Notes under the pieces: model-generated
What the model saw: only the letters and a program-made list of their open reading frames with translations
Database searches by the model: none
What the model was told of the DNA's origin: nothing
Assembly (NCBI GenBank): GCA_963665095.1
Contig: OY762069.1
Coordinates: forward strand, 3,872,001 to 3,936,000
Direction: 5' to 3'
Length of the DNA stretch: 64,000 nucleotides
From: an uncultured Desulfobacter sp.
GTDB taxonomy: Bacteria; Desulfobacterota; Desulfobacteria; Desulfobacterales; Desulfobacteraceae
Translations under genes and position numbers: made by a program
Shown: positions 23,152 to 45,042 of the stretch, piece by piece
How positions within the stretch are numbered: position 1 is the first letter of the stretch
Layout of the letters: each line of letters begins with the position of its first letter

Positions 23152-23285
23152 ACCGTCTCCTTTCATGTGAAGGGTTAATTGGATTGGCGTCCAGATACGA
23201 TACGATGAAAATGACGGGCAATGCAACTTGCCGATTTTATTAATTAGAGTAGTTGTTTGGCTGCCGCGTAGCGGCTTACTTGAAC

Positions 23286-24344: not shown

Positions 24345-25718
24345 ATGCATATGCAACGTATGGACTGGGAAAAGTTGTTAGCTGAAGAACGGTGTGGTTC
24401 TGAGACAAAAAAAAGTAATGATGGTCGAAGTCAATTCCAAAAAGATATTGATAGGATTACATTTTCAAGCTCATTCCGAAGATTGGGAAGGAAAACGCAA
24501 GTTCACCCGCTGAATGAAAACGATCATATACATACTCGTTTGTCTCATAGCTTGGAGGTTGCCTGCGTTGGAAGAAGCCTTGGCCTTATGTTGGGGTATT
24601 TTTTAGAATCTATAAAGGAACTCCCCAAAAATATAACCCCTTCAAATGTTGGTGAAATTTTACGTGCTGCCTGCTTGGCTCATGATATTGGGAACCCTCC
24701 TTTTGGCCATGCCGGTGAAGAAGTCATAAAAAAATGGTTTACGCAAGCTTTTCAGGCATCGGAATTAAAAAACAGAATAACACCTAAAGCTTATGAATCA
24801 GATTTTACATGCTACGATGGTAATGCAATGGCATTTCGGATTGTTGTATATAAAGAGTATTATACAGGTAACGGAGGGATGAGACTTACCTATCCAACAA
24901 TAGGGGCAATGTTGAAGTATCCTTGGACTTCACACTACGTCGAAAAAAAGGAAAAATTTAGTTGTTTTATTTCTGAATTTGATGTCTTTACTAAAATTTG
25001 CGAAAAATTAGGACTTAATTGCATAGAAAAATCTATTGAGGAAAGAAAAGCGAAATTTGTACGCCATCCATTGGCATTTATGGTCGAGGCAGCAGATGAT
25101 ATTTGCTATAAAATATTAGATATAGAAGATGCAGTTGAGTTAGGTCTGTTGGACCCTTGCTTTATGGAACAACAATTCAAATCTAAATTACGCCTAAAAG
25201 ATGAAGAGAATGAACTTTTAAGTTCTGAATTGGTTTCAAGGAGGACGAAGAATGCTTTATTACGTGGAAAAATGATGGAGCTTTTAATATCTGATACATT
25301 TCAAGTTTTTAAGGATAATTACAATCAAATAATGGAAGGTAGCTACAACACAGGCTTAATCGATACGAAAACTAAAGAAAGTTGCAATGCCCTTAATGAC
25401 GCATATCAATACGTAATTGATACTGTGTATTCAAGTAGACGTAAAACATTAATTGAAATCGGGGCATTTTCAACAATTGGTCATTTACTAGACACACTCA
25501 GTGAGGCGGCCTTTCAAGTTTGTTTCTTAGAAAAAAATCGTCGATCTTATAAAACAAAAAAAATTTGTGAGCTATTAAAATCGAATATCCCCGATGTTTC
25601 TAAGCCAGATCCCGCATCGTTTTATTATGGACTTATGTTTGCTTTAGATTATGTAACAGGAATGACTGATCAATATGCAACATCAATGAACAAAAAAATT
25701 TTGGGACTTGATGTATAA
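24345..25718 (+). CDS. dgt: Cassette 3: dNTP triphosphohydrolase (dGTPase family)
   Basis: FRRLGRKTQV, HTRLSHSLEV, LAHDIGNPPFGHAGE, DGNA, KYP, EAADDICY and DYVTGMTD. Confidence 0.9.
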   Translation: MHMQRMDWEKLLAEERCGSETKKSNDGRSQFQKDIDRITFSSSFRRLGRKTQVHPLNENDHIHTRLSHSLEVACVGRSLGLMLGYFLESIKELPKNITPSNVGEILRAACLAHDIGNPPFGHAGEEVIKKWFTQAFQASELKNRITPKAYESDFTCYDGNAMAFRIVVYKEYYTGNGGMRLTYPTIGAMLKYPWTSHYVEKKEKFSCFISEFDVFTKICEKLGLNCIEKSIEERKAKFVRHPLAFMVEAADDICYKILDIEDAVELGLLDPCFMEQQFKSKLRLKDEENELLSSELVSRRTKNALLRGKMMELLISDTFQVFKDNYNQIMEGSYNTGLIDTKTKESCNALNDAYQYVIDTVYSSRRKTLIEIGAFSTIGHLLDTLSEAAFQVCFLEKNRRSYKTKKICELLKSNIPDVSKPDPASFYYGLMFALDYVTGMTDQYATSMNKKILGLDV

Positions 25719-27661: not shown

Positions 27662-28029
27662 ACGCAGATGGAAACAAAATCATCACCACAATGGAGTGAA
27701 GTGGACCCCATGTCAAGACCGATTTTAACGTTTTTTAAGCTACATTTTCTCTGTTTCTAATTTCGAATCAGCCTGTTAAAGACCCTCTTTTCCGGCATAT
27801 TTTTCTTGATATTTAATACCGCTATGTTATCCTCCCGCCGCCAACCCGGAGGATAGGGCAATGCTGGGAAGCAACCTGAGCGCCGTGGCTGGCGACGAAG
27901 ACATGGGGGCAGTATACGTTTAATGTATGCTGTCCTTCCCCCATGTTTTTGTCCTTAATGCGTTAAATCCTCGCGCCTTAGCGCGAAATCAATACCCCGT
28001 AGGGCCGCCGGAGGCATCAGGCCTTTCCT

Positions 28030-28836
28030 TTAAGCCGCTCGATAGACCGAAAACGGCACCTTATACCCCAGGGCTGAATGAAGTCTCTCCCGATTATAAA
28101 ACCCGATAAACGCTTTTAACGATTGCTGAGCCTCTCTTACCGTTCTGTAGTCCTTCAAATAGACTTCTTCGTATTTAATCGTTCTCCACAGCCGTTCCAC
28201 AAAAACGTTGTCCAAGGCTCTGCCCTTTGAATCCATGCTGATTTTGATGTTTTTAGCCTGGAGTATCTTCAAAAATTTTAATGAAGTGAACTGACTACCC
28301 TGGTCAGTGTTGAAAATCTCAGGTGTCGATACAATCAATGCCTCCTCAAGGGCCTCAATACAAAATGTATTCTCAAGGGTGTTACTGAGGCGCCATGAAA
28401 GGACATATCTGCTAAACCAATCCATAACCGCCGATAAGTACATAAATCCGTTTCCAATTCTAATGTATGTGATATCTGTACTCCATACCTGATCTGGCCT
28501 GTCAATTACGGCATTTTTCAGCAAATAGGGGTAAACTTTATGGCTTTCATCCCTCCTTGTTGTTTTAGGTCCTGGGTAAATCGCTTCTATTCTCATCAGC
28601 TTCATCAGGCGCTGTACTCGTTTCCTGCTTACCGGATACCCCATATTGTTCAGCCAGGCTGTAAGCCTACGGCTTCCATAAAAGGGGGTTTTGGTATGCT
28701 GCTCATCAAGCAGATCCATAAGGGTTAATGTATACGGGCTTATGGCTACCGGCCTGTAATACAACGCCCCTTTTGAAACCTGAAGCAGTTCACACTGCCG
28801 GTTAATGCTGATGGAAGGATGTTGTTTATCTATCAA
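28030..28836 (-). CDS. IS3 OrfB, DDE integrase core
   Basis: WSTDITYI, FNTDQGSQF and DNVFVERLWRTIKYE. Confidence 0.92.
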   Translation of the reverse strand: MIDKQHPSISINRQCELLQVSKGALYYRPVAISPYTLTLMDLLDEQHTKTPFYGSRRLTAWLNNMGYPVSRKRVQRLMKLMRIEAIYPGPKTTRRDESHKVYPYLLKNAVIDRPDQVWSTDITYIRIGNGFMYLSAVMDWFSRYVLSWRLSNTLENTFCIEALEEALIVSTPEIFNTDQGSQFTSLKFLKILQAKNIKISMDSKGRALDNVFVERLWRTIKYEEVYLKDYRTVREAQQSLKAFIGFYNRERLHSALGYKVPFSVYRAA

Positions 28837-28846
28837 CCCCCTTCTG

Positions 28847-29131
28847 TCAGAGATTGATTGTATTAACCTTTTTTTTTAACCAGTCATTCTCAACTTCGAG
28901 CTGACCGATTTTCTTATATAATTCGTCTATTAGATTCTGAGTATCATTTGGGCTTTTCTTTTTCGCTGATGAAAACAACGTCGGAAGACCCTCTATCGCT
29001 TCTTTCTTCCATCTGTTTAACATAGTTCGATGAACCTGGTATTTGGATGACAACTCCGCAAGAGTTTCATTTTCTCGAATCACATCAACTACAACTTTAG
29101 CTTTGAACTTTCCGGTATAATTTTTTCTCAT
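28847..29131 (-). CDS. IS3 OrfA (HTH)
   Basis: FKAKVV..HTH..IGQLEVENDWLKKK, with an A9 tract at the 3' end. Confidence 0.88.
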   Translation of the reverse strand: MRKNYTGKFKAKVVVDVIRENETLAELSSKYQVHRTMLNRWKKEAIEGLPTLFSSAKKKSPNDTQNLIDELYKKIGQLEVENDWLKKKVNTINL

Positions 29132-29220
29132 GGACCTCCTTTTTCGGTACAAATTTGAACCGGGTTTTTATCACCTCATATGTACCTTAGCAACTGGTTC
29201 AAATTTCGGGGTCCATTATA

Positions 29221-30026
29221 CCTCCTTGCGGAGTTCCTTTTAGCGGATAAACAAGTGATCCGTCCGGCATTGCGATTGGGGCCTTTAGCCACCGTTCAAC
29301 ATACAAAAGTACCCAGCGACAATCTGTGTGTTTTACTACAGCTCTCATCAAAAGTTCATGACTGATATTGTCAAAAAATCCTTTGACATCAAGATCCAAC
29401 ACCCAGTCATACCGCCAGCATCTTTTGCGTGCTTCCCCCACGGCATCCAGGGCTGACTTGTTTGGCAGATAACCATACGAGTCCGGATGAAAATGATGCT
29501 CTAATAACGGTTCGAGATACTGTTTTACAACCATCTGGGCGACACGATCTCCCACAGTTGGAATACCAAGGGGCCTCATTCGGCCATCCCCTTTTGGTAT
29601 CTCTATACGCGCTACCGGAGGAGGGAAATAACTGCCGGAAGACATCCGGTTCCATATTTTGAAAAGGTTATTGGTAATATCCTTTTCAAAATCAACTATG
29701 GACTGATTATCTATTCCAGCCCCACCACGGTTTGCTTTCACGCATTTGTATGCTTCCCAAACTTGACGCTTTGAGATAATAAACGACTTTACTTTTTTCA
29801 ACAGAATCCTTCCCTATACGGGTTGTTCTTATGTTAAAAGTTGAACGACGCAACCCCTTCGCTCCAGTCCCATTACAGCACCTTCTTCACTACTACGAGT
29901 TGCTCCGCCCCTGTGCTCCGCTTCGGTACTCTGATCCTTGTGGTGCTTCCACTTGGATTTCTCCCTTAGCATCGGAACGACAGGTTCCCATGTTCCATAA
30001 GAAAGCCTAAGATATGTTCATGCCGC
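29221..30026 (-). pseudogene. Class D group II intron fragment (part of DI, DII-DIII and the 5' half of the RT ORF starting at 29801), truncated by IS3
   Basis: Near-identical to about 32307-33112. RT breaks at GTPQGG at the IS3 end. Confidence 0.88.
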
Positions 30027-30693
30027 CCCCCGGCGTACGGATCTCGTACCAAGGCGGTTCGGCTGGTATGAATAGAATCGGTTGTAGGTTATCCCACCGA
30101 TTTTATCGGGCTTTGGGCAAAGTCATGCTATGGAAATTTCGACCACTGCCGCATTATTTCCATAAAATCCTTCTACTTACTCACCACAACCATTTACCCA
30201 AGCCATTCGGCCCGGGTACCGTTCAGGCCTTCATCGGGGTGAGGCCTCCGGGTGTACTTCTCCCATGACAGGGAGGCCCGGCTCGTTTCCTTCCGACTAC
30301 TATGCCCTCTGCTGACTTCTCCCATGCGGTCAGGACCGGTTACCCGGCCCTCAGCCAATCCGGCACATGGGAGATCTCCCGGGGTAAACACATGTCTTTC
30401 GGTACGTGAATGCCGGGTTTACGGACATACCCTGTAATGGATAGAGGACTTTGCCTTGTGTGGCAGGCTCGTCCCGGTATGCGCGCCTTATACCCGATTC
30501 CTGTACGTCATCCCGTACCTTCGTGGTGCCTTGCCTCAGCAAAGCGGCTTCCTCCCGAAGCACCGTCACCGGTACCCCGTTGCACTACCACTACACCCTT
30601 CGCCTCCATCCGGCTGGGTCTAAGACTTGCCAAATGTATTGGAATTCTATACATTTGACTCACTCTTAAGAACATGTGCCGTGCCCGGCACAC
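30026..30693 (-). mobile_element. ORF-less class C group II intron (DI-DV), host of the class D fragment
   Basis: GTGTG 5' end at 30693 and DV GAACCGCCTTGGTACG..CCGTACGCCGGG. Essentially identical to 33820-34485. Confidence 0.88.
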
Positions 30694-31518: not shown

Positions 31519-31563
31519 AAGGCCAATCGGGATAGGACTCCCCATCACTGAGGAGCCCTCCCA

Positions 31564-33113
31564 GGTGAGTAGCCCAAAGGAACTTCCCCTTCAGGCTCTC
31601 TCAGAACCGGACGTGAATCTCTCGACTCATCCGGCTCCTATCGTTCAGCCGTTTTTTTTTCAGGACACGCCAATGTACAAAAAGGTTCGGCTGTCGTTCA
31701 GCAATCTGTGTCAACCATCTTGTGGCCTTTTGTTGACGTCCCCTGAGTTTCTTATATTTACAGATTGCCCAACGTACTAACCGCCAATTTATATGATGGA
31801 GAATCCCAGACATCTCAGAAGGATTGTACCGCCAGTAATAATTAATCCAGCCTTGAATTATTGGATTACATTCTATAGCCAGATCCTCAAGCGTGTCCCC
31901 TGGCCGTAATTGCCAGTTCCAACTGCGTACTTTCTGTCTGATTGCCTTTGCAGCCTTGTTGCTTATCGCTGGTGTGAAGTTTTCAAAAAATTTTCCTCTG
32001 CGTTTTCTTGATAATCTGGGCCGAAATGTATACCCTAGAAAATCAAACTTCATAACAGGATAATCTCCTTTTCGATCTTCATCCTTGCAATAAACTATTT
32101 TTGTCTTTTCAGGGTGCAGCTCCAACCCACATTCACCAAACCTTAACTCCAAGTCAGCTTTCAACTGTTTGGCTAATGGTTCAGTTCTGCAGTGGCAAAC
32201 AGCATCATCGGCATATCGCTCAAAAGGCACATACGAATAGTTTCGCTGCATCCAATGATCGAAAACATAATGCAAAAATAAATTTGCCAGCAAGGGACTA
32301 ACCACTCCTCCTTGCGGAGTTCCTTTTTGCGGATAAACAAGTGATCCGTCCGGCATTGCGATTGGGGCCTTTAGCCACCGTTCAACATACAAAAGTACCC
32401 AGCGACAATCTGTGTGTTTTACTACAGCTCTCATCAAAAGTTCATGACTGATATTGTCAAAAAATCCTTTGACATCAAGATCCAACACCCAGTCATACCG
32501 CCAGCATCTTTTGCGTGCTTCCCCCACGGCATCCAGGGCTGACTTGTTTGGCCGATAACCATACGAGTCCGGATGAAAATGATGCTCTAATAACGGTTCG
32601 AGATACTGTTTTACAACCATCTGGGCGACACGATCTCCCACAGTTGGAATACCAAGGGGCCTCATTCGGCCATCCCCTTTTGGTATCTCTATACGCGCTA
32701 CCGGAGGAGGGAAATAACTGCCGGAAGACATCCGGTTCCATATTTTGAAAAGGTTATTGGTAATATCCTTTTCAAAATCAACTATGGACTGATTATCTAT
32801 TCCAGCCCCACCACGGTTTGCTTTCACGCATTTGTATGCTTCCCAAACTTGACGCTTTGAGATAATAAACGACTTTACTTTTTTCAACAGAATCCTTCCC
32901 TATACGGGTTGTTCTTATGTTAAAAGTTGAACGACGCAACCCCTTCGCTCCAGTCCCATTGCAGCACCTTCTTCACTACTACGAGTTGCTCCGCCCCTGT
33001 GCTCCGCTTCGGTACTCTGATCCTTGTGGTGCTTCCACTTGGATTTCTCCCTTAGCATCGGAACGACAGGTTCCCATGTTCCATAAGAAAGCCTAAGATA
33101 TGTTCATGCCGCC
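31564..33113 (-). mobile_element. Class D (RmInt1-like) group II intron lacking the 5' part of domain I
   Basis: DV GAGCCGGATGAGTCGAGAGATTCACGTCCGGTTC and 3' end CTACTCACC. No GTGYG 5' end at the junction. Confidence 0.85.
31601..32887 (-). CDS. ltrA: Group II intron reverse transcriptase/maturase, class D, no endonuclease domain
   Basis: KIWNRMSSGSYFPPPV, LGIPTVGDR, GTPQGGVVSPLLANLFLH, ERYADD, FDFLGYTF and maturase X domain. Confidence 0.93.
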   Translation of the reverse strand: MKKVKSFIISKRQVWEAYKCVKANRGGAGIDNQSIVDFEKDITNNLFKIWNRMSSGSYFPPPVARIEIPKGDGRMRPLGIPTVGDRVAQMVVKQYLEPLLEHHFHPDSYGYRPNKSALDAVGEARKRCWRYDWVLDLDVKGFFDNISHELLMRAVVKHTDCRWVLLYVERWLKAPIAMPDGSLVYPQKGTPQGGVVSPLLANLFLHYVFDHWMQRNYSYVPFERYADDAVCHCRTEPLAKQLKADLELRFGECGLELHPEKTKIVYCKDEDRKGDYPVMKFDFLGYTFRPRLSRKRRGKFFENFTPAISNKAAKAIRQKVRSWNWQLRPGDTLEDLAIECNPIIQGWINYYWRYNPSEMSGILHHINWRLVRWAICKYKKLRGRQQKATRWLTQIAERQPNLFVHWRVLKKKRLNDRSRMSREIHVRF

Positions 33114-33777
33114 ACCCGGCATACGGATCTCGTACCAAGGCGGTTCGGCTGGTATGAATAAAATCAGTTGTAGGTTATCCCACCGATTTTATCGGGTTTT
33201 GGGCAAAGTCTTGCTATGGAAATTTCGGCCACTGCCGCATTATTCCCATAAAATCCTTCTACTTACTCACCACAACCATTTACCCAAGCCATTCGGCCCG
33301 GGTACCGTTCAGGCCTTCATCGGGGTGAGGCCTCCGGGTGTACTTCTCCCATGCCAGAGAGGCCCAGCTCGTTTTTTCCGACTACTATGCCCTCTGCTGA
33401 CTTCTCCCATGCGGTCAGGACCAGTTACCCGGCCCTCAGACAATCCGGCACATGGGAGATCTCCCGGGGTAAACACGTGTCTTTCAGTACCTGAATGCCG
33501 GATTTACGGACATACCCTGTAATGGATAGAGGACTTCACCTTGTTGTGCAGGCTCGTCCCGGTATGTGCGTCTTATATCCGATTTCTGTACGTCATCCCG
33601 TACCTTCGTGGTACCTTGCCTCAGCAAGGCGGCTTCCTCCCGAAGCACCGTCACCGGTACCCCGTTGCACTACCACTACACCCTTCGCCTCCATCCGGCT
33701 GGGTCTAAGACTTGCCAAACGCATTGAAATCGTTTACGTTTGACTCACTTTTAAGAACACGTGCCGTGCCCGGCACA

Positions 33778-34485
33778 ATAGGGATAGGACTCCCCATTAC
33801 TGAGGAGCCCTCCCACACCACCCGGCGTACGGATCTCGTACCAAGGCGGTTCGGCTGGTATGAATAGAATCGGTTGTAGGTTATCCCACCGATTTTATCG
33901 GGCTTTGGGCAAAGTCATGCTATGGAAATTTCGACCACTGCCGCATTATTTCCATAAAATCCTTCTACTTACTCACCACAACCATTTACCCAAGCCATTC
34001 GGCCCGGGTACCGTTCAGGCCTTCATCGGGGTGAGGCCTCCGGGTGTACTTCTCCCATGACAGGGAGGCCCGGCTCGTTTCCTTCCGACTACTATGCCCT
34101 CTGCTGACTTCTCCCATGCGGTCAGGACCGGTTACCCGGCCCTCAGCCAATCCGGCACATGGGAGATCTCCCGGGGTAAACACATGTCTTTCGGTACGTG
34201 AATGCCGGGTTTACGGACATACCCTGTAATGGATAGAGGACTTTGCCTTGTGTGGCAGGCTCGTCCCGGTATGCGCGCCTTATACCCGATTCCTGTACGT
34301 CATCCCGTACCTTCGTGGTGCCTTGCCTCAGCAAAGCGGCTTCCTCCCGAAGCACCGTCACCGGTACCCCGTTGCACTACCACTACACCCTTCGCCTCCA
34401 TCCGGCTGGGTCTAAGACTTGCCAAATGTATTGGAATTCTATACATTTGACTCACTCTTAAGAACATGTGCCGTGCCCGGCACAC
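33778..34485 (-). mobile_element. Complete ORF-less class C group II intron (708 nt), tandem insertion
   Basis: GTGTG 5' end, DV with CGC triad and DVI ending CCCTAT. Short DIV with no RT ORF. Confidence 0.9.
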
Positions 34486-34486
34486 C

Positions 34487-34612
34487 ACCAAACGCTGGAG
34501 CGGGACCGGGCTTACTGCGTGGATTTTTGAAAGTTTGTGGTTCAAGAAAATGTAAACTTTTATCTGAGGATACGGCTTCAAAACGCCCGGCCCCTCAGCT
34601 TCCCCGTTATAA
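34487..34612 (+). other. attC7 main body
   Basis: ACCAAACGCTGGAGCGGGACCGGGC...GCCCGGCCCCTCAGCTTCCCC-GTTATAA. Confidence 0.85.
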
Positions 34613-34630
34613 ATTTGAAGGACAAACGAA

Positions 34631-35362
34631 TTGCATCAAGATAATAAAATTGCATTGCTGATTGATTGTGACAATGTTAGTCACAAATCTATTGAAGGTG
34701 TTATCGATGAACTTTCCAAGTATGGGAAAGTCAATATAAGGCATGCCTATGGAAATTGGAAAAACGATAGTATGAAAGGTTGGGAAGAGAAGTTGCACCC
34801 ACATGCCATCAAACCAATTCAGCAATTTGCATATACTAAGGGTAAAAATGCAACTGATGCTGCTATGATAATTGATGCAATGGATATTTTATATACTCAA
34901 AACCTTGATGCTTTTGCATTAATGACGAGTGATAGCGATTTTACACCGCTGGTTATGCGCATTTTATCTAATGGCATTACAGTTTATGGTTTTGGAGAGA
35001 AAAAAACTCCACAGCCTTTCGTCAAAGCCTGTTCTCAATTTATATACACAGAAAATTTAGAGCAAATAGAAGGGGAAGATGAAAAGCCTGATAATAATGT
35101 AAATGCAAAAAAGACAAGGAACGAACTGAGACAAGATGCAGCATTGGTAAAATTATTAAGAACAGCTGTAGAGCATTTTGCAGATGAGAGTGGATGGTCT
35201 CATTTAGGTCTTGTTGGGCAATATATTAGCAACAAAACCTCATTTTCACCCGTAAATTACGGGTATAAAAAATTAGGCGACTTAATAAGAGTTAGTGATC
35301 TTTTTCATATAGAAATGAGAGATGACAACTCTACTATGTACATAAAAGATATAAGAAAATAA
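34631..35362 (+). CDS. Cassette: NYN-domain (LabA/PIN-like) protein with C-terminal OST-HTH/LOTUS domain
   Basis: IALLIDCDN, KGKNATDAAMIIDAMD, TSDSDFTPL and FSPVNYGYKKLGDLI. Confidence 0.9.
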   Translation: MHQDNKIALLIDCDNVSHKSIEGVIDELSKYGKVNIRHAYGNWKNDSMKGWEEKLHPHAIKPIQQFAYTKGKNATDAAMIIDAMDILYTQNLDAFALMTSDSDFTPLVMRILSNGITVYGFGEKKTPQPFVKACSQFIYTENLEQIEGEDEKPDNNVNAKKTRNELRQDAALVKLLRTAVEHFADESGWSHLGLVGQYISNKTSFSPVNYGYKKLGDLIRVSDLFHIEMRDDNSTMYIKDIRK

Positions 35363-35364
35363 TT

Positions 35365-35493
35365 TTATAACAAAGCCGCTGAACCCGACCGGGCAACCTG
35401 CGCGGCGTTTTGAGGCTGCCTGGTTAATGAAATTTTAAACTTTTACCGGAGCTATTGTGGTTTAAACGCCCGGCCGGTTAGCTCCCCGTTATG
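35365..35493 (+). other. attC8
   Basis: R'' TTATAAC matches GTTATAA at 34606. CCGGGC/GCCCGG arms. R' GTTATG immediately followed by the intron's GTGCG. Confidence 0.88.
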
Positions 35494-36197
35494 GTGCGAC
35501 ACGAGGTCGCATTATTGGCTGTTTGGCGGACCAGTCGGTCCTGACCAAACCCGGCTCCTGCCGGTACCCTAGGTGGCATGCGGTTACCGGTGCATCCGGC
35601 AACGGTGTGAAGCCCAACCGACAAAGTACCGAATTCCGCAGCTGCGGAAGGGGTGGAAGCCGTGAGGCGGATACCCTCCTGGAAGCCTCAATCCGGGTAA
35701 GGGCAAGGGTTTGGATGATATGGTCAAATTAATTGAATGTTCCGTAAGTACCGTCAGGGAGAGCAAGCTAAAAAGGCTGGTAAGCTTGGACCAAAAGGTG
35801 AGCGGTCAGGTTGCAGGTTTCCTAACTGCCTGCACGGAGATGTTGTGCCGCCGGTGCTTAAGGGCAGACCTAAGTCATCCATAAATTGGCAATAATGCGG
35901 AACGTGGAAACCCCGTATCTTCGCCGGGAGTATTCGGCAGGTGAAACTGTAAGGCACACTGATGGAGGTGCGGGCGTAAGATGCAGGAAAAAGCGAATGC
36001 CGTCTTGTAATGAGATGGATACGGATTGAGGCGTATATCCCCAACATTACCCGGCCCGAAAGGGAGCTGACGTCCGGCGGGTGTGACTACAGACACACCC
36101 GGGCAGGTATTTCGTAAGCGTTTAAAGGACCCCATCTACAACTCATTAAAATGACATGAGAAGATGAGCCAACTTTTAATTAACGGAGGCCCATCAT

Positions 36198-36530
36198 ATG
36201 TCAGAAACAGAGAACAAAAACCAAAAGCTAATCCAGTTCTGGAAATACCATATTAAACAATGGTCTGAATCGAGTATGTCCCAAAATGCATACTGCAGGC
36301 AAAATGATTTAAGACCCAATCAATTTACATACTGGAAAATGAAATTCAAAAGCCAGGCACTTGCCCCAGAATTCGTTCAGGTCCCTTCAACGCAGATCAG
36401 CCAGGCACTAAGTCTTTCTGAACAAAAAGGCTTAACGTTGAATACAGATAACGGATTTCAGATCGAAATACCGGATGGCTTTTCCCAAACAACCCTGGCC
36501 CAGGTGCTTCAAGTATTGAGGCGGTGCTGA
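36198..36530 (+). CDS. tnpA: IS66 accessory protein TnpA
   Basis: W..SSMSQNAYCRQNDL..QFTYWK HTH; first ORF of the IS66. Confidence 0.85.
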   Translation: MSETENKNQKLIQFWKYHIKQWSESSMSQNAYCRQNDLRPNQFTYWKMKFKSQALAPEFVQVPSTQISQALSLSEQKGLTLNTDNGFQIEIPDGFSQTTLAQVLQVLRRC

Positions 36531-36883
36531 TGTTTTCTCCCACCCAGAATTTAAAAATTCATATCGCACTTGGAAACACTGATATGCGCAAGTCCATTGA
36601 TGGGCTATCCATACTTGTGAGCGAAAAGTTAAATTTGGATCCATTTTCAGGACACATGTTTGTATTCTGTAATCGGAAACGGAATATATTGAAAATCCTG
36701 TATTGGGATCGCAATGGATTCTGTCTTTGGCATAAGCGCTTGGAAAGGGATTATTTTCAATGGCCCAAGTCAAAAGAGGAAATTTTGACCATCGGAGCAA
36801 AAGAGCTTTCCTGGCTGATGGACGGACTTTCTATTCGTCAGGAAAAAGCACATAAATCATTAAAATATTCGGCTGTTTTTTGA
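36530..36883 (+). CDS. tnpB: IS66 accessory protein TnpB
   Basis: TDMRKSIDGL, FVFCNRKR and LYWDRNGFCLWHKRLE. Confidence 0.92.
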   Translation: MFSPTQNLKIHIALGNTDMRKSIDGLSILVSEKLNLDPFSGHMFVFCNRKRNILKILYWDRNGFCLWHKRLERDYFQWPKSKEEILTIGAKELSWLMDGLSIRQEKAHKSLKYSAVF

Positions 36884-36928
36884 TCATAAAAACTGGTGAA
36901 AACCGCGTGGTTATGGTATATACAACGC

Positions 36929-38521
36929 ATGAATAAAGAGGCTTTTGCAGACATAAATGACGTTGAGAAATTAAAAGAAATGATGGCTTGTTTTGTCAAT
37001 GATTTTTCAGATAGAGAGCACAATTATAAAGCCGAAATCAAAATTCTCAACGAACAGATTAAAAGCCTTCGGGACCAGCTTTTTGGTAAAAAGACAGAAA
37101 AAATCCATAAGAATGACGGTCAACTATCCCTTTTTGATACTTTTGAGCCGGATACGCCCATATTGGACGAACCCGAAGAAATCAGCGTGCCTGCCCATAA
37201 TCGAAAGAAGCCAGGGCGTAGACCTTTGCCTGAAAACCTTCCACGGGTTGAAGTGATCCACGATCTGACCGAGGAAGAAAAAATATGTGCCTGTGGCTGC
37301 ATGAAATCCCGTTGCGGCAAAGAAGAATCTGAACAGCTTGAAATTATTCCGGCACAAGTGAGAGTAATCAGAAACATTCGTTATAAATACGCTTGCAAAA
37401 ACTGCGAAGGTGTTGACGATGATGGGCCAACAGTGTCCATTGCCAGAATGCCGGAACAAATGATCCCCAAGAGCATCGCAACCCCAGGGCTTTTGGCCCA
37501 TATCCTGACAGCCAAATTTGCAGATGCTTTACCCTTCTACCGGCAGGAAAAACAGTTTAACCGAATTGGAGTAGACATCCACAGGTCCAATATGTGCAAT
37601 TGGGCTATGAAAGTGGCCCAGGCCTGTGAGATCCTGCTGGAATATATGAAGGATGAAATCCTTAAAGGCCCAGTGATAAATATTGACGAAACAACAGTCC
37701 AGGTTCTCAAAGAACCGAAACGGTCAAAATGCTATATGTGGGTGTTCAAAGGAGGGACACCGGATAATCCCATTATTCTGTTCCAGTATCACCCAACTCG
37801 ATCCGGGGATGTTGCCCGGAATTTTTTGAACGGTTATCAAGGTGTTGTTCAGACGGATGGCTATGCTGGCTATGACTTTCTTGATCATATTGTGGAAATC
37901 ATTCATGTTGCGTGCTGGGCACACGCACGTCGAAAGTTCATGGCTGTGGTCAAAGCTGCCGGAAATAAAACTGGCAACCCAACGGGAACCGCCGGCAAAG
38001 CCCTGAAGTACATCAGCAAATTATACAAAATAGAAAGAGAGGCCAAAGAACTTGGTTTGTCTGCTGATGGACTTTACTGGAAAAGGCAGGAGCTATCCTT
38101 GCCTATCCTTGATGAATTTAAAAAATGGTTGGATGCTCAAGTTGAAAAGGTACCGCCCAAAAGTCTTCTTGGTAAAGCCATTAACTACACCCTTAATCAA
38201 TGGCATAGATTGGTTCTGTATACGGCAAGTGGTCTGGTAATGCCGGATAATAATGTAGTCGAAAATGCCATAAGACCCTTTGTGGTGGGCAGAAAAAATT
38301 GGTTGTTTTCATGTACACCTGCGGGCGCCGATGCCAGTGCCTGCATTTACAGCCTGATCGAAACAGCCAAGGCCAATGGGCTTGAACCTTACTGGTACCT
38401 CAAATTTCTCTTTGAAAATTTACCGGAAGCCATGACGGAAGATGAATTTAAAGCCTTGATGCCACAAAACGTGGATAAACATTTGCTGGAATCCAACTAT
38501 ACAACACCCCGTCAGGCTTAA
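36929..38521 (+). CDS. tnpC: IS66 transposase TnpC
   Basis: Leucine zipper, Zn-ribbon, IDETT, QTDGY, CWAHARRKF and DNNVVENAIRP. Confidence 0.93.
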   Translation: MNKEAFADINDVEKLKEMMACFVNDFSDREHNYKAEIKILNEQIKSLRDQLFGKKTEKIHKNDGQLSLFDTFEPDTPILDEPEEISVPAHNRKKPGRRPLPENLPRVEVIHDLTEEEKICACGCMKSRCGKEESEQLEIIPAQVRVIRNIRYKYACKNCEGVDDDGPTVSIARMPEQMIPKSIATPGLLAHILTAKFADALPFYRQEKQFNRIGVDIHRSNMCNWAMKVAQACEILLEYMKDEILKGPVINIDETTVQVLKEPKRSKCYMWVFKGGTPDNPIILFQYHPTRSGDVARNFLNGYQGVVQTDGYAGYDFLDHIVEIIHVACWAHARRKFMAVVKAAGNKTGNPTGTAGKALKYISKLYKIEREAKELGLSADGLYWKRQELSLPILDEFKKWLDAQVEKVPPKSLLGKAINYTLNQWHRLVLYTASGLVMPDNNVVENAIRPFVVGRKNWLFSCTPAGADASACIYSLIETAKANGLEPYWYLKFLFENLPEAMTEDEFKALMPQNVDKHLLESNYTTPRQA

Positions 38522-38781
38522 AAAGGTGCGGTTGATACACCGCTTACGGTATTTCTTTGCAAGAGAGTCTGGAGAATCTTTGAGGATGGTGTAGATTCCC
38601 GAAATAACCTGAACAAAAACCCGCCAAATTTTTCATATTAAATTGACAAAGTTCCATTTTTCTCAAATTATCCTGTACAGGTTCTGATCAAAGCATTCTG
38701 ACAAAAATGAAAAGGGCGAAAAGCTTTGCAGAGCCTCGCCCTTAAGACCGGGATTTATAAAATCCCAAAACAACCATAAAA

Positions 38782-39228
38782 ATGATAATAAAGGTCAAAG
38801 CTGATATCAAGCAAATTTTCAAGCAGGGCAAAAATTTTACATGGCCAAAACCGTCACGATGTCCACATTGCAACGACTCCAGGCTGTGGGGACACGGCTT
38901 TGTACTCTCCTTTTTTGATGGATTTGATCAAGGGGTGTATTTGAAGCGATATCGCTGCCCCTATTGCAAAACCGTATTCAAATTGAAGCCATATGGTTTT
39001 TTCAAGAGGTTCCAGGCCAGTATCTGGCAAATCCTTACCAGCATTATGAGTCGTCTATACACTGACCGGTATCTGCCGGAACTCTCCTGGAACCGACAGC
39101 ATTTTTGGTTTACTGCATTGAAACGAAATATAGCGGCCTACCTGTCCAACAGTTGGGACAAAGGTGTGGTTGCTGGTTTTATCAAGCTAATCGGTATGGG
39201 TAAAATCCCGGTTACCAGTTCAATTTAA
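38782..39228 (+). CDS. Zn-ribbon accessory protein (DUF6431-like)
   Basis: CPHC..LWGHG..RYRCPYC; first gene of the element. Confidence 0.7.
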   Translation: MIIKVKADIKQIFKQGKNFTWPKPSRCPHCNDSRLWGHGFVLSFFDGFDQGVYLKRYRCPYCKTVFKLKPYGFFKRFQASIWQILTSIMSRLYTDRYLPELSWNRQHFWFTALKRNIAAYLSNSWDKGVVAGFIKLIGMGKIPVTSSI

Positions 39229-39331
39229 CCATGGGGCTGGATCAGGTTTAAACCACCCTACCGAAGGCTGTGATTTACCGAAGGATCATACTGTCATACA
39301 AGCCCTTAGAACCAAATTTTAAGGAGGAAGT

Positions 39332-40588
39332 ATGACAGAAAATCAGAAAAATGAGGTTGCCGTGTTCAGGTTTGGGGTCATTTGTGAATTTGTGACCGGA
39401 ACAAATTTTGATTACGGTGAAAAAGAACGAATTTTACAGCAGAAGTGCGCCCGCAAATGGTCCATCCCGTATTCTGGAAGGACCAGGCTTTCCAGAAGTA
39501 CGATTCTGGGATGGGTCCGGCAGTATAACGGTCGAATAGAGTCTCTTTACCCCAAAGACCGTTCAGACCAGGGAAAATCAAGGGTATTCGATGACGAGAC
39601 TGCATCTCAACTAATCAAACTCCGGTTAGACCAGCCTGATGCGACAGTCGATACATTGATCTGTTCACTTCAAAAAACTACATGCCAGACATACAGTCCA
39701 TCCAGTGTATACCGTTTTTTACGCGGCCGGGGGCTAATGAACACGGCCCGGCCAGAGGATAGAAGAAAGTTTGAAGCCCCGCACCCCAATGATATGTGGC
39801 AAAGCGACGTCATGCACGGCCCTACAGTCCTGGTTCAGGATAAGCAAAGAAAAACGTACCTGATTGCCATTATGGACGATCATTCCAGGCTGGTTACGGC
39901 TGCAGGTTTTTATTTATCTGAGAATCTGAAGACCTATCTTATGGTGCTGGAGCAGGCTTTTTTGAGCCGTGGGCTTCCCCGCAAGCTGTATGTAGATAAC
40001 GGTCCTGCGTTCAGATCCCATCATTTAAAATATGTAGCAGCGTCTCTGTCCATCGCTTTAATCCATGCAAGGCCATATAAGCCCCAGGGGAAAGGTAAAA
40101 TCGAGCGCTGGTTCAGAACGGTTCGGCTTCAGTTTCTGCAAAGATTTACAGGTAAGACCCTGGATGATCTGAATGGGGCATTTGAGAAGTGGCTTCATAA
40201 TGAGTACCATCAGCGTAAACACAGCTCCACAGGCGAATCACCGTTTAAAAGATTTACCTCGGCCATGGAGTGCATCCGTACCGCCCCACCGGATCTGAAA
40301 GACCACTTCCGCAAAACCGCCCGGCGCAAGGTGGCAAAGGACCGAACCATAACCCTTGACGGCAACATGTTTGAGGCCCCGGTTGCGCTGATCGGCAGAC
40401 ATGTGGATGTAAAGTACCATGAGGACACCCCTTTGCAGGCTGAAGTTATCTATAAAGCAAAGTCTTATGGCTTGTTAACCCCGGTGGACCTTGCTGTGAA
40501 CTGCCGGGTCAAGCGGCACCGCTGGAACGAAAATGATATCCGGATTATGCCTGAACCCTCAAATTACAAGGGAGGGCAACTGTTATGA
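39332..40588 (+). CDS. DDE transposase (rve/Mu-like) with C-terminal Mu-transpos_C-like domain
   Basis: WQSDVMHG, DDHSR, LYVDNG and GKGKIERWF. Confidence 0.9.
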   Translation: MTENQKNEVAVFRFGVICEFVTGTNFDYGEKERILQQKCARKWSIPYSGRTRLSRSTILGWVRQYNGRIESLYPKDRSDQGKSRVFDDETASQLIKLRLDQPDATVDTLICSLQKTTCQTYSPSSVYRFLRGRGLMNTARPEDRRKFEAPHPNDMWQSDVMHGPTVLVQDKQRKTYLIAIMDDHSRLVTAAGFYLSENLKTYLMVLEQAFLSRGLPRKLYVDNGPAFRSHHLKYVAASLSIALIHARPYKPQGKGKIERWFRTVRLQFLQRFTGKTLDDLNGAFEKWLHNEYHQRKHSSTGESPFKRFTSAMECIRTAPPDLKDHFRKTARRKVAKDRTITLDGNMFEAPVALIGRHVDVKYHEDTPLQAEVIYKAKSYGLLTPVDLAVNCRVKRHRWNENDIRIMPEPSNYKGGQLL

Positions 40589-41394
40589 GTGAAATGTATC
40601 GCACCTTTTTTGGCTTATCCAGGGAGGCCTTCCCGGCGCAGATAGAAATTAATGATATCCTGGTTACCCCGGAGGTCTCGGGCGTTAAAAATCGGATTGA
40701 TTATTCCTTAAGACTTGGCTGCAGTGCGGTTATCACAGGGGATGTGGGCAGCGGAAAGTCCACCGCCTTAAGGTATGCCGCCTCATCCCTACACCCTTCG
40801 GAATACAAAGTCTTTTATGTTACGGCCTCAAGCGGTTCCATCATGGAACTTTACCGGCAGATTGTTGAAGAACTGGGCATAGAGCGGACATCGACGTCCC
40901 GCGCTGTTATGATCTCCATTATTAAAAATGAAATACGTGAATTCGTCCTGGGAAAAAAGATCAAAACCGTTTTGATTATAGATGAGGCATCTCTGCTTCG
41001 CATGGAAGTCTTTGCCGAACTTCACACCCTGGTTCAATTTGAAAAAGACGCCATGCCCTGGCTGCCTGTGATCCTTGCAGGTCAGCCGACATTGATAGAT
41101 AAGCTTCAGTACCGGACGTCAATCCCGTTTGCATCCAGGATTGTGGCTAAAAGCCATCTGGATGGTCTGGATGTGGCTGGAATGAAAACTTACCTGATCC
41201 ATCATTTAAAACTATGCGGTGTTGACACCAACTTTTTTTCTGACCAGGCGGTGACTGCGATTCATCAAGGCTCCGGCGGCCTTTTACGAAAGGCGAATAA
41301 TCTTGCCAGAGGCTCATTGATTGCTGCTGCGGCAGAAAAATCAATGACGGTATCTGCAGAGCATGTCCGCATTGCTTCATCGGAGATTTTTTAA
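40585..41394 (+). CDS. ExeA-family AAA ATPase (transposition helper)
   Basis: Walker A GDVGSGKST, Walker B LIIDEA and ILAGQP. Overlaps the transposase stop. Confidence 0.88.
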   Translation: MSEMYRTFFGLSREAFPAQIEINDILVTPEVSGVKNRIDYSLRLGCSAVITGDVGSGKSTALRYAASSLHPSEYKVFYVTASSGSIMELYRQIVEELGIERTSTSRAVMISIIKNEIREFVLGKKIKTVLIIDEASLLRMEVFAELHTLVQFEKDAMPWLPVILAGQPTLIDKLQYRTSIPFASRIVAKSHLDGLDVAGMKTYLIHHLKLCGVDTNFFSDQAVTAIHQGSGGLLRKANNLARGSLIAAAAEKSMTVSAEHVRIASSEIF

Positions 41395-42043
41395 GAAAAA
41401 ACAGCCATAGAGCAGAATATTACGATTTCGGTGAAACGGAGCCGGGCTCTGCTGAGGAGCAACCTGGTAAGGGATAGCCGGAAGCAGGCAGCATTGAATA
41501 ATGCGCCAGGGGAAGTGGGGATTACCTGCTTCCCCTTTCTGCTTTATTCAAGCTGTTCTGCCTATGCCTTAAAAACCTACTGAGAAGGAGCGCAGCGACT
41601 TCTGTAGCTGTCTTAAATAATATGGAAAAGATTTAATCTGTTCAAAATAATTAGAAAATTTAAGTCAGGATAAAATGCGACTCAACAATGGGAAAGCAAA
41701 TGACGGCAATAGCTGGTGCGCCATCAGCAGCTTTACGCTGTTAAAAGACTGTAGATGCGTATCGCAAAGGTTGTTAAAGTAGCACACGGCATATGCGCCA
41801 GAGGTTCTTTCAAAAGGATGCATTTTCTTTTGACTCGGAAAAAGAACAGTGCTTTCCGAGAGAATGCTCAAGGACATATGCTATGAAATAACTGTAAATT
41901 TCATTATTGCTAAAACAACCGGGCGGCCCGCAAGGCTTAGTCTTAGAAATGCTTGAGCCGTATGATGGGAAACTGTCACGTACGGTTCTGAGGGGGCCTG
42001 GGGTAGATAACTACCCCAGGCTACCCGATTTTCAAAAAAATCG

Positions 42044-42080
42044 TTGCACGGATCCAAAAGTAATACTACAATGGTATTAC
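42044..42080 (+). promoter_or_regulatory. TA promoter with overlapping palindromic operator
   Basis: TTGCAC-17 nt-TACAAT. GTAATAC/GTATTAC inverted repeat spans the -10. Confidence 0.65.
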
Positions 42081-42100
42081 ATTATCAAAGGAGATTTATT

Positions 42101-42325
42101 ATGCGTGTAACCACAAAAGGCCAAGTCACTATCCCCAAGAATGTAAGGGAAATATTAGGTATTGCTCCAGAGACAGACGTTGATTTTCAAGAAGATAACG
42201 GAAGATTTTATCTGGTCAAAGTATCAAAAAACAAACCGACCTCTAAATTTTCGAAGTTAAGGGGGATTGCTACAGCTAAAATGTCTACAGACGAAATCAT
42301 GAATATGACAAGAAAAATAAAATGA
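42101..42325 (+). CDS. AbrB/MazE/SpoVT-family antitoxin
   Basis: MRVTTKGQVTIPKNVREILGI, with AGGAG RBS. Confidence 0.9.
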   Translation: MRVTTKGQVTIPKNVREILGIAPETDVDFQEDNGRFYLVKVSKNKPTSKFSKLRGIATAKMSTDEIMNMTRKIK

Positions 42326-42726
42326 ACGGAATTTTCATTGATTCGTGTGTGTTGCTTGATCTGTTTACGAATGATTCTAAATGGGGAAACTGGTCTGAAG
42401 ACGTATTAAGTCAGTGTAGCCAGACGAATACATTATTCATTAATTCAATTGTGTATACCGAAATATCAATTGGTTTCAACCGTATTGAAGAAGTCGAGGA
42501 AGCTGTTGAACAAGTGGGTGTAAAAGTCCTGGAAATTCCACGCGAAGCTTTGTTTTTGGCTGGAAAGACATTCCTTGAGTATCGAAGAAATAAGGGCACT
42601 AAAAGTTCAACCCTTCCGGATTTCTTCATTGGTGCTCACGCTACAGTATCTTCATTTGACTTAGTCACAAGGGACATTGCAAAATATAGAACGTATTTCC
42701 CAAACATAAAACTTATTTGCCCATGA
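42322..42726 (+). CDS. vapC: VapC/PIN-domain toxin
   Basis: IFIDSCVLLD, YTEISIGF, LPDFFIGAHA and VTRD. Confidence 0.9.
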   Translation: MNGIFIDSCVLLDLFTNDSKWGNWSEDVLSQCSQTNTLFINSIVYTEISIGFNRIEEVEEAVEQVGVKVLEIPREALFLAGKTFLEYRRNKGTKSSTLPDFFIGAHATVSSFDLVTRDIAKYRTYFPNIKLICP

Positions 42727-42814
42727 TTTGCTTCAAGACGTGGTCGCAAACAAATTTTGAACTTTATACCAAGCGAATAGGGATAGGACTCCCCATCACT
42801 GAGGAGCCCTCCCA

Positions 42815-43733
42815 GGTGAGTAGCCCAAAGGAACTTCCCCTTCAGGCTCTCTCAGAACCGGTCGTGAATCTCTCGACTCATCCGGCTCCTATCGTTCAGC
42901 CGTTTTTTTTTCAGGACACGCCAATGTACAAAAAGGTTCGGCTGTCGTTCAGCAATCTGTGTCAACCATCTTGTGGCCTTTTGTTGACGTCCCCTGAGTT
43001 TCTTATATTTACAGGTTGCCCAACGTACTAACCGCCAATTTATATGATGGAGAATCCCAGACATCTCAGAAGGATTGTACCGCCCGTAATAATTAATCCA
43101 GCCTTGAATTATTGGATTACATTCTATAGCCAGATCCTCAAGCGTGTCCCCTGGCCGTAATTGCCAGTTCCAACTGCGTACTTTCTGTCTGATTGCCTTT
43201 GCAGCCTTGTTGCTTATCGCTGGTGTGAAGTTTTCAAAAAATTTTCCTCTGCGATTTCTTGATAATCTGGGCCGAAATGTATACCCTAGAAAATCAAACT
43301 TCATAACAGGATAATCTCCTTTTCGATCTTCATCCTTGCAATAAACTATTTTTGTCTTTTCAGGGTGCAGCTCCAACCCACATTCACCAAACCTTAACTC
43401 CAAGTCAGCTTTCAACTGTTTGGCTAATGGTTCAGTTCTGCAGTGGCAAACAGCATCATCGGCATATCGCTCAAAAGGCACATACGAATAGTTTCGCTGC
43501 ATCCAATGATCGAAAACATAATGCAAAAATAAATTTGCCAGCAAGGGACTAACCACTCCTCCTTGCGGAGTTCCTTTTTGCGGATAAACAAGTGATCCGT
43601 CCGGCATTGCGATTGGGGCCTTTAGCCACCGTTCAACATACAAAAGTACCCAGCGACAATCTGTGTGTTTTACTACAGCTCTCATCAAAAGTTCATGATT
43701 GATATTGTCAAAAAATCCTTTCTCATGGCACAC
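42815..43733 (-). pseudogene. Class D intron with both termini but a large internal deletion (only the 3' two-thirds of the RT remains)
   Basis: GTGTGCCATGAG joined directly to the KGFFDNI codons. The remainder is near-identical to 31564-32470. Confidence 0.85.
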
Positions 43734-43786
43734 CACCACCCGGCATACGGATCACGTACCAAGGCGGTTCGGCTGATTTCGAAAAA

Positions 43787-44858
43787 TCAGTTCCCGGGCA
43801 GATACAATCCTTTCTTAACAAAATACATTTCAGGCATGGCAATGGCCACCCACTTGATTTTGCTCATGTGCCAATACTTTTTGCGTGCGTTGCCGCACAG
43901 CATGGCGTCCTGATGAGAAATACCAAGTTTTTCCAGGTTACGGACCCTGGTCCCAGGGTTTTTCCATTGTTTCCAAACAAGACTTCTCAGCCGTCGCAGT
44001 ATCCAGACCTTGAGTTCTTTCAGAAAATAGCGGGTTTCCGTGAGCCGGAAATATCCCCACCACCCTCGGAAATACTGGTTCAAGTCCTGAATCACTTGCC
44101 ACAGACTTTTACCCCGTTTACGGCAGGTTAATTCCCGGACCTTATCCTTGAACCGTTTCATACTCTTGGCATGAATCCGGATCTTGGACTGCCCACACAT
44201 TTGGAAATATGTGAATCCTAAGAATTTACCTATCCACGGTCTGCTTACAGCACTCTTATCCTGGTTTACCTTGAGCTTGAGTTTCACAGTCAGAAACCGG
44301 GTGATACTCTGCATAACCCGCTGGGCTGCTCTCAGGTATGGCCTTCAACCATATACCCCTTCCCCTGTATCACTGCATCGTGTGCGGATCTGCCGGGCCT
44401 GAATCCATAACTGAATTCAGAAAAAGAGGGGTCCCAGACCTGTTCAAGGACCTGGCTCAATTTATCATGACCATCGACACCTGGGATATGGCCTGCTGGA
44501 TAAACCGGTCCAGCACTGTTGGGATTCCAAGTAAACGGACACCGCCATCCGGTTTAGGGATTTCCTTCCTTTTAACCGGCAGCGGTTTGTACCTGCATTC
44601 CAGCAGGTCTTGTTTGATTTCAGGCCAGTGCTTTGCAAGGTAGCTGCCAAGCTGGCTGGTTTTCATGCCATCCACTCCTGGGGCACCCTTGTTTGCACAG
44701 ACATGCTTCCATGCCAGGATAATGTTGTTACGTTCAAGAATCATCTCCATTAAACGGGCATTGTTTCCCAGACGTTCGGCAATCTGTGACGCTGGAAACA
44801 GTTCCAACTGCTGTGGCGATCTGTTCACAAGTACACATCTCCTATTTGTCGTTATCAT
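43787..44858 (-). pseudogene. ltrA: Class C intron RT, disrupted by a small insertion and by deletion of the central RT domains including YADD
   Basis: N-terminal fragment (NKGAPGVDG, LLGIPTVLDRFIQQA). C-terminal fragment (LKVNQDKS, FLGFT, RGWWGYF). Confidence 0.85.
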
Positions 44859-45042
44859 TTACCCGGACCATTCGGCCCGGGCACCGTTCAGGCCTTCACC
44901 GGGGTGAGTCCTCCCTGGTTTGCAGGGCTCGTTTCCTCCGACTACTATGCCCTCTGCTGACTTCTCCCATGCGGCCAGGACCAGTTACCCGGCCCTCAGC
45001 TCCCCATTCGATTTTAAAAACAACCATACTTGTACAAAATAA

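What the first reader, a model, noticed from the sequence alone, without database searches (positions are those of the whole stretch)
31526..43790. Class D intron that homes into the DV/DVI junction of attC-targeting class C introns
Seen: the uninterrupted IIC intron (33778-34485) reads ...CCGGGTGGTG|TGGGAGGGCTCC on the minus strand. At 31563/31564 and 42814/42815 a class D 3' end (CTACTCACC) abuts that same TGGGAG. At 43733/43734 a GTGTG 5' end abuts the GGTGGTG. The two hosts differ (one ORF-less, one with its own RT) and the inserts carry different deletions. Inference: at least two independent insertions at the same nucleotide, i.e. an intron specialised to parasitise the most conserved part of another intron, which itself parasitises attC. 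Twintrons are known, but a target at the DV/DVI junction is unusual.
Basis: partly seen in the sequence, partly recalled or inferred. Interest (0 to 1): 0.85.

Follow-up and report, generated by a model that had tools for sequence, protein, structure and literature searches.

The report
Intron targeting other introns' catalytic end
A mobile self-splicing intron inserts at one exact spot, just past the catalytic hairpin of other self-splicing introns, and its target-recognition loop changes to match whichever kind of intron it invades, so it lives as a parasite of parasites.

Summary
A class D group II intron sits exactly between domains V and VI (GGTGGTG|TGGGAG) of class C attC introns. The window holds three broken copies, not two. 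Two share one 5' deletion, and no copy in this genome keeps EBS1.

Intact 1.86-kb copies in two same-genus genomes have EBS1 CGCCAC, which pairs with GTGGTG, and EBS2 GCATA, which pairs with TATGC. All 9 5' ends and all 12 3' ends read in the genus are at DV/DVI junctions.

The target is wider than class C attC introns. The 13 closest metagenomic relatives also sit at DV/DVI junctions. The 8 with a readable 5' exon end in a non-IIC DV, and EBS1 is CAGATC/CAGAAC in the 7 scored. Bacillota, Bacteroidota and Endozoicomonadaceae class D introns use CACCAC on IIC introns. A tree test rejects a single origin.

Twintrons are known, and one published table lists class D B.t.I4 in 'RNA domain 6 of B.t.I3'. 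I found no paper describing this target. This scan noted the same site on other DNA. Splicing and homing are inferred, not shown.

The parts
33778..34485 (-). Uninterrupted ORF-less class C (IIC-attC type) intron, 708 nt; shows the empty target GGTGGTG|TGGGAG. Its EBS1 loop reads CACA rather than ACAA.
33113..33777 (-). ORF-less class C host B, domains I-V. It directly follows the previous intron and lacks its first G; its last 2 nt are lost in the deletion.
31564..33112 (-). Inner class D intron, copy B = nt 309-1867 of the intact intron; 5' end with EBS2 and EBS1 deleted at a GG microhomology; 3' end CTACTCACC intact
31601..32887 (-). RT/maturase ORF of copy B, 428 aa, YADD present, no endonuclease domain; the C-terminus reads on into DV after a poly-A tract
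   Evidence: (TIGR04416, 427 bits)
31526..31563 (-). Domain VI and 3' end of host B
43734..45000 (-). RT-bearing class C host A, broken: first ~340 nt lost, RT in fragments; DV ends GGTGGTG at 43734
42815..43733 (-). Inner class D intron, copy A: both junctions intact, nt 13-950 deleted
42777..42814 (-). Domain VI and 3' end of host A
30027..30693 (-). ORF-less class C host C, domains I-V, 99.85% identical to 33778-34485; inserted in an attC site
29221..30026 (-).
27697..29220 (-). IS3-family element that cuts copy C
34486..34590 (-). attC-like site (bottom strand) forming the 5' exon of the class C intron; cassette ORFs lie on the + strand. Boundaries read by eye.
   Evidence: consensus TTGT/T from PMC7923331

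Best explanation
The inner element is a bacterial class D (endonuclease-minus) group II intron whose homing site is the DNA encoding the 3' strand of domain V of another group II intron. SHOWN: the exact site, the pairing of EBS1 and EBS2 to it, and the covariation of EBS1 with host type. EBS1 (CGCCAC/CACCAC) pairs with the last 6 nt before the site, which is the strand opposite the host's CGC catalytic triad. EBS2 (GCRTA) pairs with -14..-10 in the upper DV stem. INFERRED from class D biology: the lariat RNP reverse-splices into single-stranded DNA at the replication fork and is reverse-transcribed from a nascent-strand primer. INFERRED: the host cannot splice until the inner intron has spliced out, which restores DV-DVI exactly, so the host spreads clean and keeps making new empty targets it cannot easily mutate away. 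The copies in this window are dead relics, reshuffled by deletion and recombination.
For: Four intact 1860-1867-nt copies have both junctions in G037 and G043. In G037/G043/G045, 9 of 9 true 5' ends follow a DV (the 11 one-mismatch hits were an unrelated repeat). In these three genomes plus G000, 12 of 12 3' ends precede a DVI. Copies 95-100% identical over the aligned parts sit in different host introns in G037 (L336, L338, L339). All 13 closest metagenome relatives, of 80 loci kept, have DV and/or DVI flanks. EBS1 against IBS1 in 31 scored introns: 22 CACCAC:GTGGTG, 2 CGCCAC, 7 CAGATC/CAGAAC against G(A/G/T)TCTG or GTGCTG. Pairing score with own exon versus swapped exon: 11.8 vs 7.7 and 10.9 vs 6.3, of 12. 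The EBS1 loop sits on a 6-bp stem with 98% of cells paired and compensatory changes at 6 of 6 pairs. In an order-wide search not biased by the junction, 6 of 6 close Bacillota copies follow a IIC DV. Joined flanks fold a DV-type hairpin upstream of the cut in 12 of 12 loci.
Against: There is no RNA evidence of splicing or lariats, and no mobility assay. No copy in this genome retains EBS1. EBS3 could not be assigned by covariation. Some copies sit on imperfect targets (L249 GTGTTG; L013, L016, L017 one mismatch; L279 and L143 have a +1 base other than T). Most loci outside the window's lineage were found by a pattern that required the junction, so they show spread, not specificity. Five of 9 host DVs in this genome stay empty.
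Confidence: 0.9

Rival explanations
1. One ancient insertion spread among host copies by DNA recombination or gene conversion; there is no repeated retrohoming.
For: Copies B and C share one deletion yet lie in hosts about 94% alike. Window inner copies are 99.4% identical. DVI haplotypes are mixed between ORF-less and RT hosts. Recombination therefore did act in this array.
Against: The same intron lies in unrelated host introns. Close relatives lie in non-IIC hosts with a matching EBS1 switch. Separate clades in other phyla use the same nucleotide. Recombination cannot explain these.
Confidence: 0.05
2. The intron is a specialist on class C attC introns in particular, chosen through the attC or integron context.
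For: 7 of 9 5' ends (an eighth follows a truncated DV of the same type) and 10 of 12 3' ends in this genus are in the IIC-attC host.
Against: None of the 8 readable 5' exons of the closest metagenome relatives ends in GTGGTG. Other G037 copies are in other hosts. The IIC-attC family is probably just the commonest matching DV in these genomes (inference).
Confidence: 0.1
3. The element is kept by the bacterium as a brake on introns that disable attC sites, making it a domesticated anti-intron.
For: It occupies 4 of 9 host DVs here; in G037 no empty host DV matched the pattern.
Against: Copies decay quickly and all four here are dead. The distribution is patchy (4 of 161 family genomes). Splicing of the inner intron should restore the host. 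This is the pattern of a selfish element.
Confidence: 0.05

Closest known systems
B.t.I4 of Bacteroides thetaiotaomicron (Table S1 of PMC3552965, read whole)
   Same: Class D, RT-X, 1904 nt, host listed as 'RNA domain 6 of B.t.I3'. Named Bacteroides records L125 (1879 nt) and L146 (1893 nt) carry class D introns at the DV/DVI junction of IIC-type introns, so B.t.I4 is probably the same site.
   Different: It is one table cell with no junction, EBS or mechanism. I could not read its sequence, and 'domain 6' might mean inside DVI. The Bacteroides clade is separate from the window's lineage.
RYADD-homing introns B.th.I3, M.a.I5, UA.I3, P.l.I2 (PMC2504315, passages); nested Methanosarcina introns (PMC4424553, passages)
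   Same: Endonuclease-minus introns of about 1.8 kb that home to a conserved spot in other retroelements and form twintrons. M.a.I5 is listed as class D. The window's lineage falls among YADD homers in the tree and shares their EBS2 loop AAAGCGTA.
   Different: The target here is ribozyme core (the DV/DVI linker), not the RT ORF. It therefore also hits ORF-less introns, and it should block host splicing until the inner intron is excised.
Thermosynechococcus elongatus TeI3-in-TeI4 twintrons (PMC2882425, passages)
   Same: Repeated insertion of one intron at a conserved site of another.
   Different: The inner intron is ORF-less and the site is in domain IV, between two start codons.
Trichodesmium Tr.e.I7/I8 twintron (PMC4649490, passages and title)
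   Same: A bacterial twintron in a ribozyme domain, with sequential splicing.
   Different: The site is in domain I, and it is a single locus.
IIC-attC introns (PMC7923331, passages)
   Same: The host: inserted in the attC bottom strand at TTGT/T, antisense to the cassettes.
   Different: This genome also carries ORF-less versions and an EBS1 variant (CACA) that inserts after TGTG/GGTG.
Euglena chloroplast psbF twintron (recalled, and named in earlier finding e1-6784143; not verified, one search found nothing)
   Same: As recalled, the inner group II intron interrupts domain V of the outer one.
   Different: Organellar, degenerate and not a mobile lineage.

Membership tests
Bacterial class D group II intron (inner) | IEP groups with class D | tested here: met
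   It lies in one clade (SH-aLRT 100) with the Table S1 class D references E.c.I9 and D152. Identity is 53% and 59% to them, against 31-40% to other RTs of this genome.
Bacterial class D group II intron (inner) | RT-X protein of about 410-430 aa without endonuclease; intron about 1.8-1.9 kb | tested here: met
   ORF of about 417-429 aa and intact intron of 1860-1867 nt; Table S1 range
Bacterial class D group II intron (inner) | GUGYG 5' end, DV with AGC triad, DVI with bulged A | tested here: met
   GTGTGCC...GAGCCG...CTACTCACC; RF00029 hits at 31564-31639 and 42815-42890
Bacterial class D group II intron (inner) | EBS1-IBS1 and EBS2-IBS2 pairing | tested here: met
   CGCCAC:GTGGTG (one G-U) and GCATA:TATGC; covarying stem under the EBS1 loop
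Bacterial class D group II intron (inner) | EBS3-IBS3 pairing | tested here: inconclusive
   +1 is mostly T; no candidate position covaried with +1
Bacterial class D group II intron (inner) | Splices and retrohomes | not testable with these tools
   Public runs gave only patchy contigs
Class C (IIC) attC intron (host) | IEP closest to class C | tested here: met
   The full host RT (L217, 446 aa) scores 481 bits to GsI-IIC RT and 384 to chain 7uim, against about 145 to LtrA and the 6me0 maturase
Class C (IIC) attC intron (host) | CGC catalytic triad in DV | tested here: met
   GAACCGCC...GGTGGT hairpin
Class C (IIC) attC intron (host) | Inserted in the attC bottom strand at TTGT/T | tested here: met
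   9 of 12 host 5' ends in the genome follow TTGT. Two follow TGTG/GGTG (EBS1 variant) and one follows another intron.
Class C (IIC) attC intron (host) | Placement inside the published IIC-attC clade (S.ma.I2, Ge.s.I1) | not tested
   No named reference was fetched; best plasmid hits were 50-56% identical
RYADD-homing class D introns (M.a.I5 type) | Insertion after the YADD codons of an RT gene | tested here: not met
   None of the window-lineage junctions read is in an RT ORF. It works like these introns but is not one.
Functional twintron | Inner intron splices first, then the outer | not testable with these tools
   Only the geometry was shown

The most novel reading that the evidence does not exclude
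Class D introns have repeatedly and independently been retargeted to the DV/DVI junction, a site no group II intron can easily change because it pairs with the catalytic triad. One route is from YADD homing: EBS2 (GCGTA) is kept, because the Tyr-Ala codons TAY-GC resemble the TACGY/TATGC of the upper DV stem, and only the 6-nt EBS1 is swapped. A further swap of three EBS1 bases (CACCAC to CAGATC) moves the parasite between CGC-triad and AGC-type hosts. This would make a widespread, undescribed guild of core-targeting intron parasites, themselves hit by third introns in their own DV and DVI.
Probability: 0.55. Interest if true: 0.72.

Novelty: new variant of a known kind. Interest (0 to 1): 0.6.

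Why it matters
It shows a retroelement aiming at the catalytic core of its own class of ribozyme, a target held fixed by function, and doing so convergently in at least three phyla. It gives a natural series of EBS1 switches that track the host's catalytic triad, and testable bacterial twintrons in which inner splicing must come first. Pipelines that need DV and DVI together miss the outer introns (PMC8919778 notes that nested introns were missed), so such hosts are probably under-counted. In integron arrays it adds a layer that may dampen attC-invading introns.

Tried and rejected
Host as class E: rejected by the RT match to IIC structures and the TTGT/T site.

A second inner intron type at 43733: rejected; its 12 nt are the 5' end of the same intron.

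One DV-homing clade: rejected, p-AU 5.7e-5 on 52 rows. That set left out 17 near-duplicate or long rows and the outgroup. The narrower test (window lineage plus Bacillota) did not finish and was not resumed.

Viral contigs: no relative.

RNA evidence: RNA runs held at most 20% of the words. Laying 4 of the 20 runs on an intact twintron gave patchy contigs. Joints skipping 1867-1869 nt appeared only in a run of unrecorded kind and are explained by empty host alleles. No claim is made.

A degenerate 5' pattern in five genomes found nothing; it served only to obtain handles.

Whole-domain-I folding (z -2.1) did not resolve the EBS loops; the alignment test was used instead.

My idea that the CACA host variant targets only occupied attC sites: not supported. 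In relatives it follows TTGTG in 3 of 4 cases and TTGT in one, and one readable 3' exon starts TCGC.

Strand bias: inner copies lie in the lagging-template orientation in 4 of 4 (G000) and 3 of 3 (G043), but only about 5 of 8 (G037). The Fisher p of 0.04 in G000 rests on non-independent copies, so this is weak.

Script slip: L044 was binned with the controls, so the non-DV control mean (8.2) is inflated and is not used. L158 and L068 had no anchor and were dropped.

Literature searches without a description of this target. PMC12584367, PMC3534033 and PMC7049729 (outline or passages) had nothing on it. Dai and Zimmerly 2003 was not held.
Full report
OBSERVATION. The window (G000:3872001-3936000) contains a cassette array on the + strand with toxin-antitoxin genes, IS elements and several group II introns on the minus strand. 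The genome has 9 copies of the host domain V. Five continue into their own DVI (one with a changed target) and four are interrupted at or beside the same base. Three interrupted copies are in the window. Copy A (43733-42815) keeps both junctions but lacks nt 13-950. Copy B (33112-31564) lacks the first ~308 nt. Copy C (30026-29221) has the same 5' deletion and is cut by an IS3-family element. A fourth, nt 1-209, is at genome position 647002. No copy covers the EBS1 region, so the element is dead in this genome.

INTACT COPIES. The 5' junction pattern hit 4 of 161 family genomes, all in the window's genus. L090, L092, L093 and L095 hold intact 1860-1867-nt introns, about 98.5-99% identical to copy B, with GGTGGTG before and TGGGAG after. 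Searching by the intron's own ends, 9 of 9 true 5' ends in three genomes follow a DV, and 12 of 12 3' ends in four genomes precede a DVI. Most hosts are the IIC-attC family, both RT-bearing and ORF-less. G037 also has copies in three other host introns (L249/L336, L279/L338, L280/L339). That establishes independent insertions. The window alone does not, because B and C share a deletion and DVI haplotypes are mixed.

CLASSES. The inner RT falls in one clade with two class D references named in Table S1 of PMC3552965 and has no endonuclease domain. The host RT is closest to the GsI-IIC RT, its DV has a CGC triad, and 9 of 12 host 5' ends follow TTGT. That is the IIC-attC consensus given in PMC7923331.

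TARGET RECOGNITION. The site lies in the linker just 3' of the DV helix; joined flanks fold a DV-type hairpin upstream of the cut in 12 of 12 loci. In the intact intron the Id3 loop TTGCGCCACTG contains CGCCAC, which pairs with GTGGTG with one G-U. The preceding loop contains GCATA, which pairs with TATGC at -14..-10. Across 25 introns the 6-bp stem under this loop is 98% paired, with changes on both sides at all 6 pairs, and it beats 500 shuffles and all slid registers. Of 32 DV-site introns tried, 31 could be scored: 22 CACCAC on GTGGTG, 2 CGCCAC, and 7 CAGATC/CAGAAC on non-IIC exons. Swapping exons between the two groups drops the pairing score from 11.8 to 7.7 and from 10.9 to 6.3 of 12. 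EBS2 has at most one mismatch in 30 of 30 tallied. EBS3 was not assigned.

BREADTH. The metagenome scan kept the best 80 of 458 relatives. The 13 at 84% identity or more all have DV and/or DVI flanks (8 5' and 10 3' junctions read; L019 and L020 share a flank). None of the 8 5' exons is the IIC GTGGTG type, and one 3' exon looks like a class D DVI. I did not assign these hosts to classes by tree. Among the other 67, one (L044) is at a DV, many follow YADD codons and the rest are elsewhere or unreadable. The genome scan stopped at 120 matches. By eye, 29 are IIC DVs followed by a class D-type 5' end, 6 are DVs with an extra GTG and 85 look like chance. The 29 come from Bacillota (15), Pseudomonadota (7, four from one genome), Bacteroidota (5), Thermodesulfobacteriota (1) and one unassigned. 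All 9 whose 3' end was read continue into DVI. This scan required the junction. As an unbiased check, 6 of 6 close copies in an order-wide search of 201 genomes around G400 follow a IIC DV. In the family of G401 the only other close copy has lost its 5' end into a IIC-like RT gene.

EVOLUTION. In RT trees the DV label needs 5 changes, at least 3 of them forced by starred branches, and one clade is rejected (p-AU 5.7e-5). The window's lineage is a fully supported clade among YADD homers. YADD and DV homers share the EBS2 loop AAAGCGTA, which the four controls with other targets lack. Both targets carry TAYGY, one base further from the site in DV. I infer retargeting by EBS1 change. The direction is not rooted, and exchange of domain I by recombination is not excluded.

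MECHANISM. Shown: site, pairings, covariation, spread. From established knowledge: endonuclease-minus introns prime reverse transcription at the replication fork, and twintrons usually need the inner intron spliced first (PMC4424553). Inferred: reverse splicing into single-stranded DV-coding DNA; a host blocked until the inner intron leaves; a host that then homes clean and renews the target; and a target hard to mutate because IBS1 is the partner strand of the catalytic triad. Orientation data lean towards the lagging-strand template but are weak.

PRIOR KNOWLEDGE. Site-specific twintrons are known (passages only). Table S1 of PMC3552965 lists class D B.t.I4 in 'RNA domain 6 of B.t.I3', probably this site, but I could not read that sequence. 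Of that paper I read parts 1-2 of 4 of the text and Table S1, and searched Table S2. Nine searches found no description of DV/DVI homing. The library lacks most subscription papers, the Zimmerly database, theses and bioRxiv supplements, any of which may describe it. Earlier notes of this scan report the same site on other DNA; I did not use them as support.

VERDICT. The finding is real and mechanistically well supported: a new variant of a known kind, with a probable one-line precedent. Interest 0.6.

Noticed in passing
L091 (G037:C1:1012000-1022000), also L339 and L340: A third group II intron (5' GTGCGTCCAG, 3' CGACCCTAC, 1710 nt in L091, internally deleted RT) is inserted in the DV 3' strand of the inner class D intron (CCGGTT|CTGAG), giving a three-level nest. 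Only its 3' junction was seen in L339 and L340.
   Followed up: partly
window 33778-34485 and 30027-30693; L303-L332: The IIC-attC family has three EBS1 variants that track the 5' exon: ACAA after TTGT, AACA mostly after TGTT/GGTT, and CACA mostly after TGTG. The 34485 copy may sit after the first G of the 33777 intron.
   Followed up: partly
G096:C1:2.36-2.43 Mb (L308, L325, L326, L329): Head-to-tail tandem copies (1931-nt period) of the AACA-variant IIC intron; 23 pattern hits in that genome.
   Followed up: no
window 35494-42029 (+): Another group II intron on the + strand starts right after an attC site (GTTATG|GTGCGACACG) and is split by IS66 and IS481-like elements. Four more such 5' ends are in the genome. 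Class not tested.
   Followed up: partly
L093 and L095 (G043): The same IIC host carries two class D parasites, one after the YADD codons of its RT and one at DV/DVI.
   Followed up: partly
L016 and L017: Close relatives of the inner intron are themselves interrupted near their 3' ends: L016 by a class D-like intron at the DVI branch region (GGGCTA|GTGTG), L017 just after DV.
   Followed up: no
L108, L123, L126, L154, L159, L184: IIC introns with an extra GTG at exactly this junction and their own DVI after it; possibly footprints of lost inner introns, or repeat slippage.
   Followed up: no
L334 (G040): The IIC host DV loop is split by about 2.1 kb that looks like the + strand-type intron in reverse orientation.
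   Followed up: no
window 44990-45010: The RT-bearing host's 5' part appears deleted through a GCTGAGGGCCGG microhomology shared by the attC site and intron domain I.
   Followed up: no
window 21179-23226 and 24345-25718: An IS91-family transposase with a tyrosine recombinase, and a dGTPase gene in the cassette region. No protein among the 25 scanned reached the integron-integrase cut-off.
   Followed up: no
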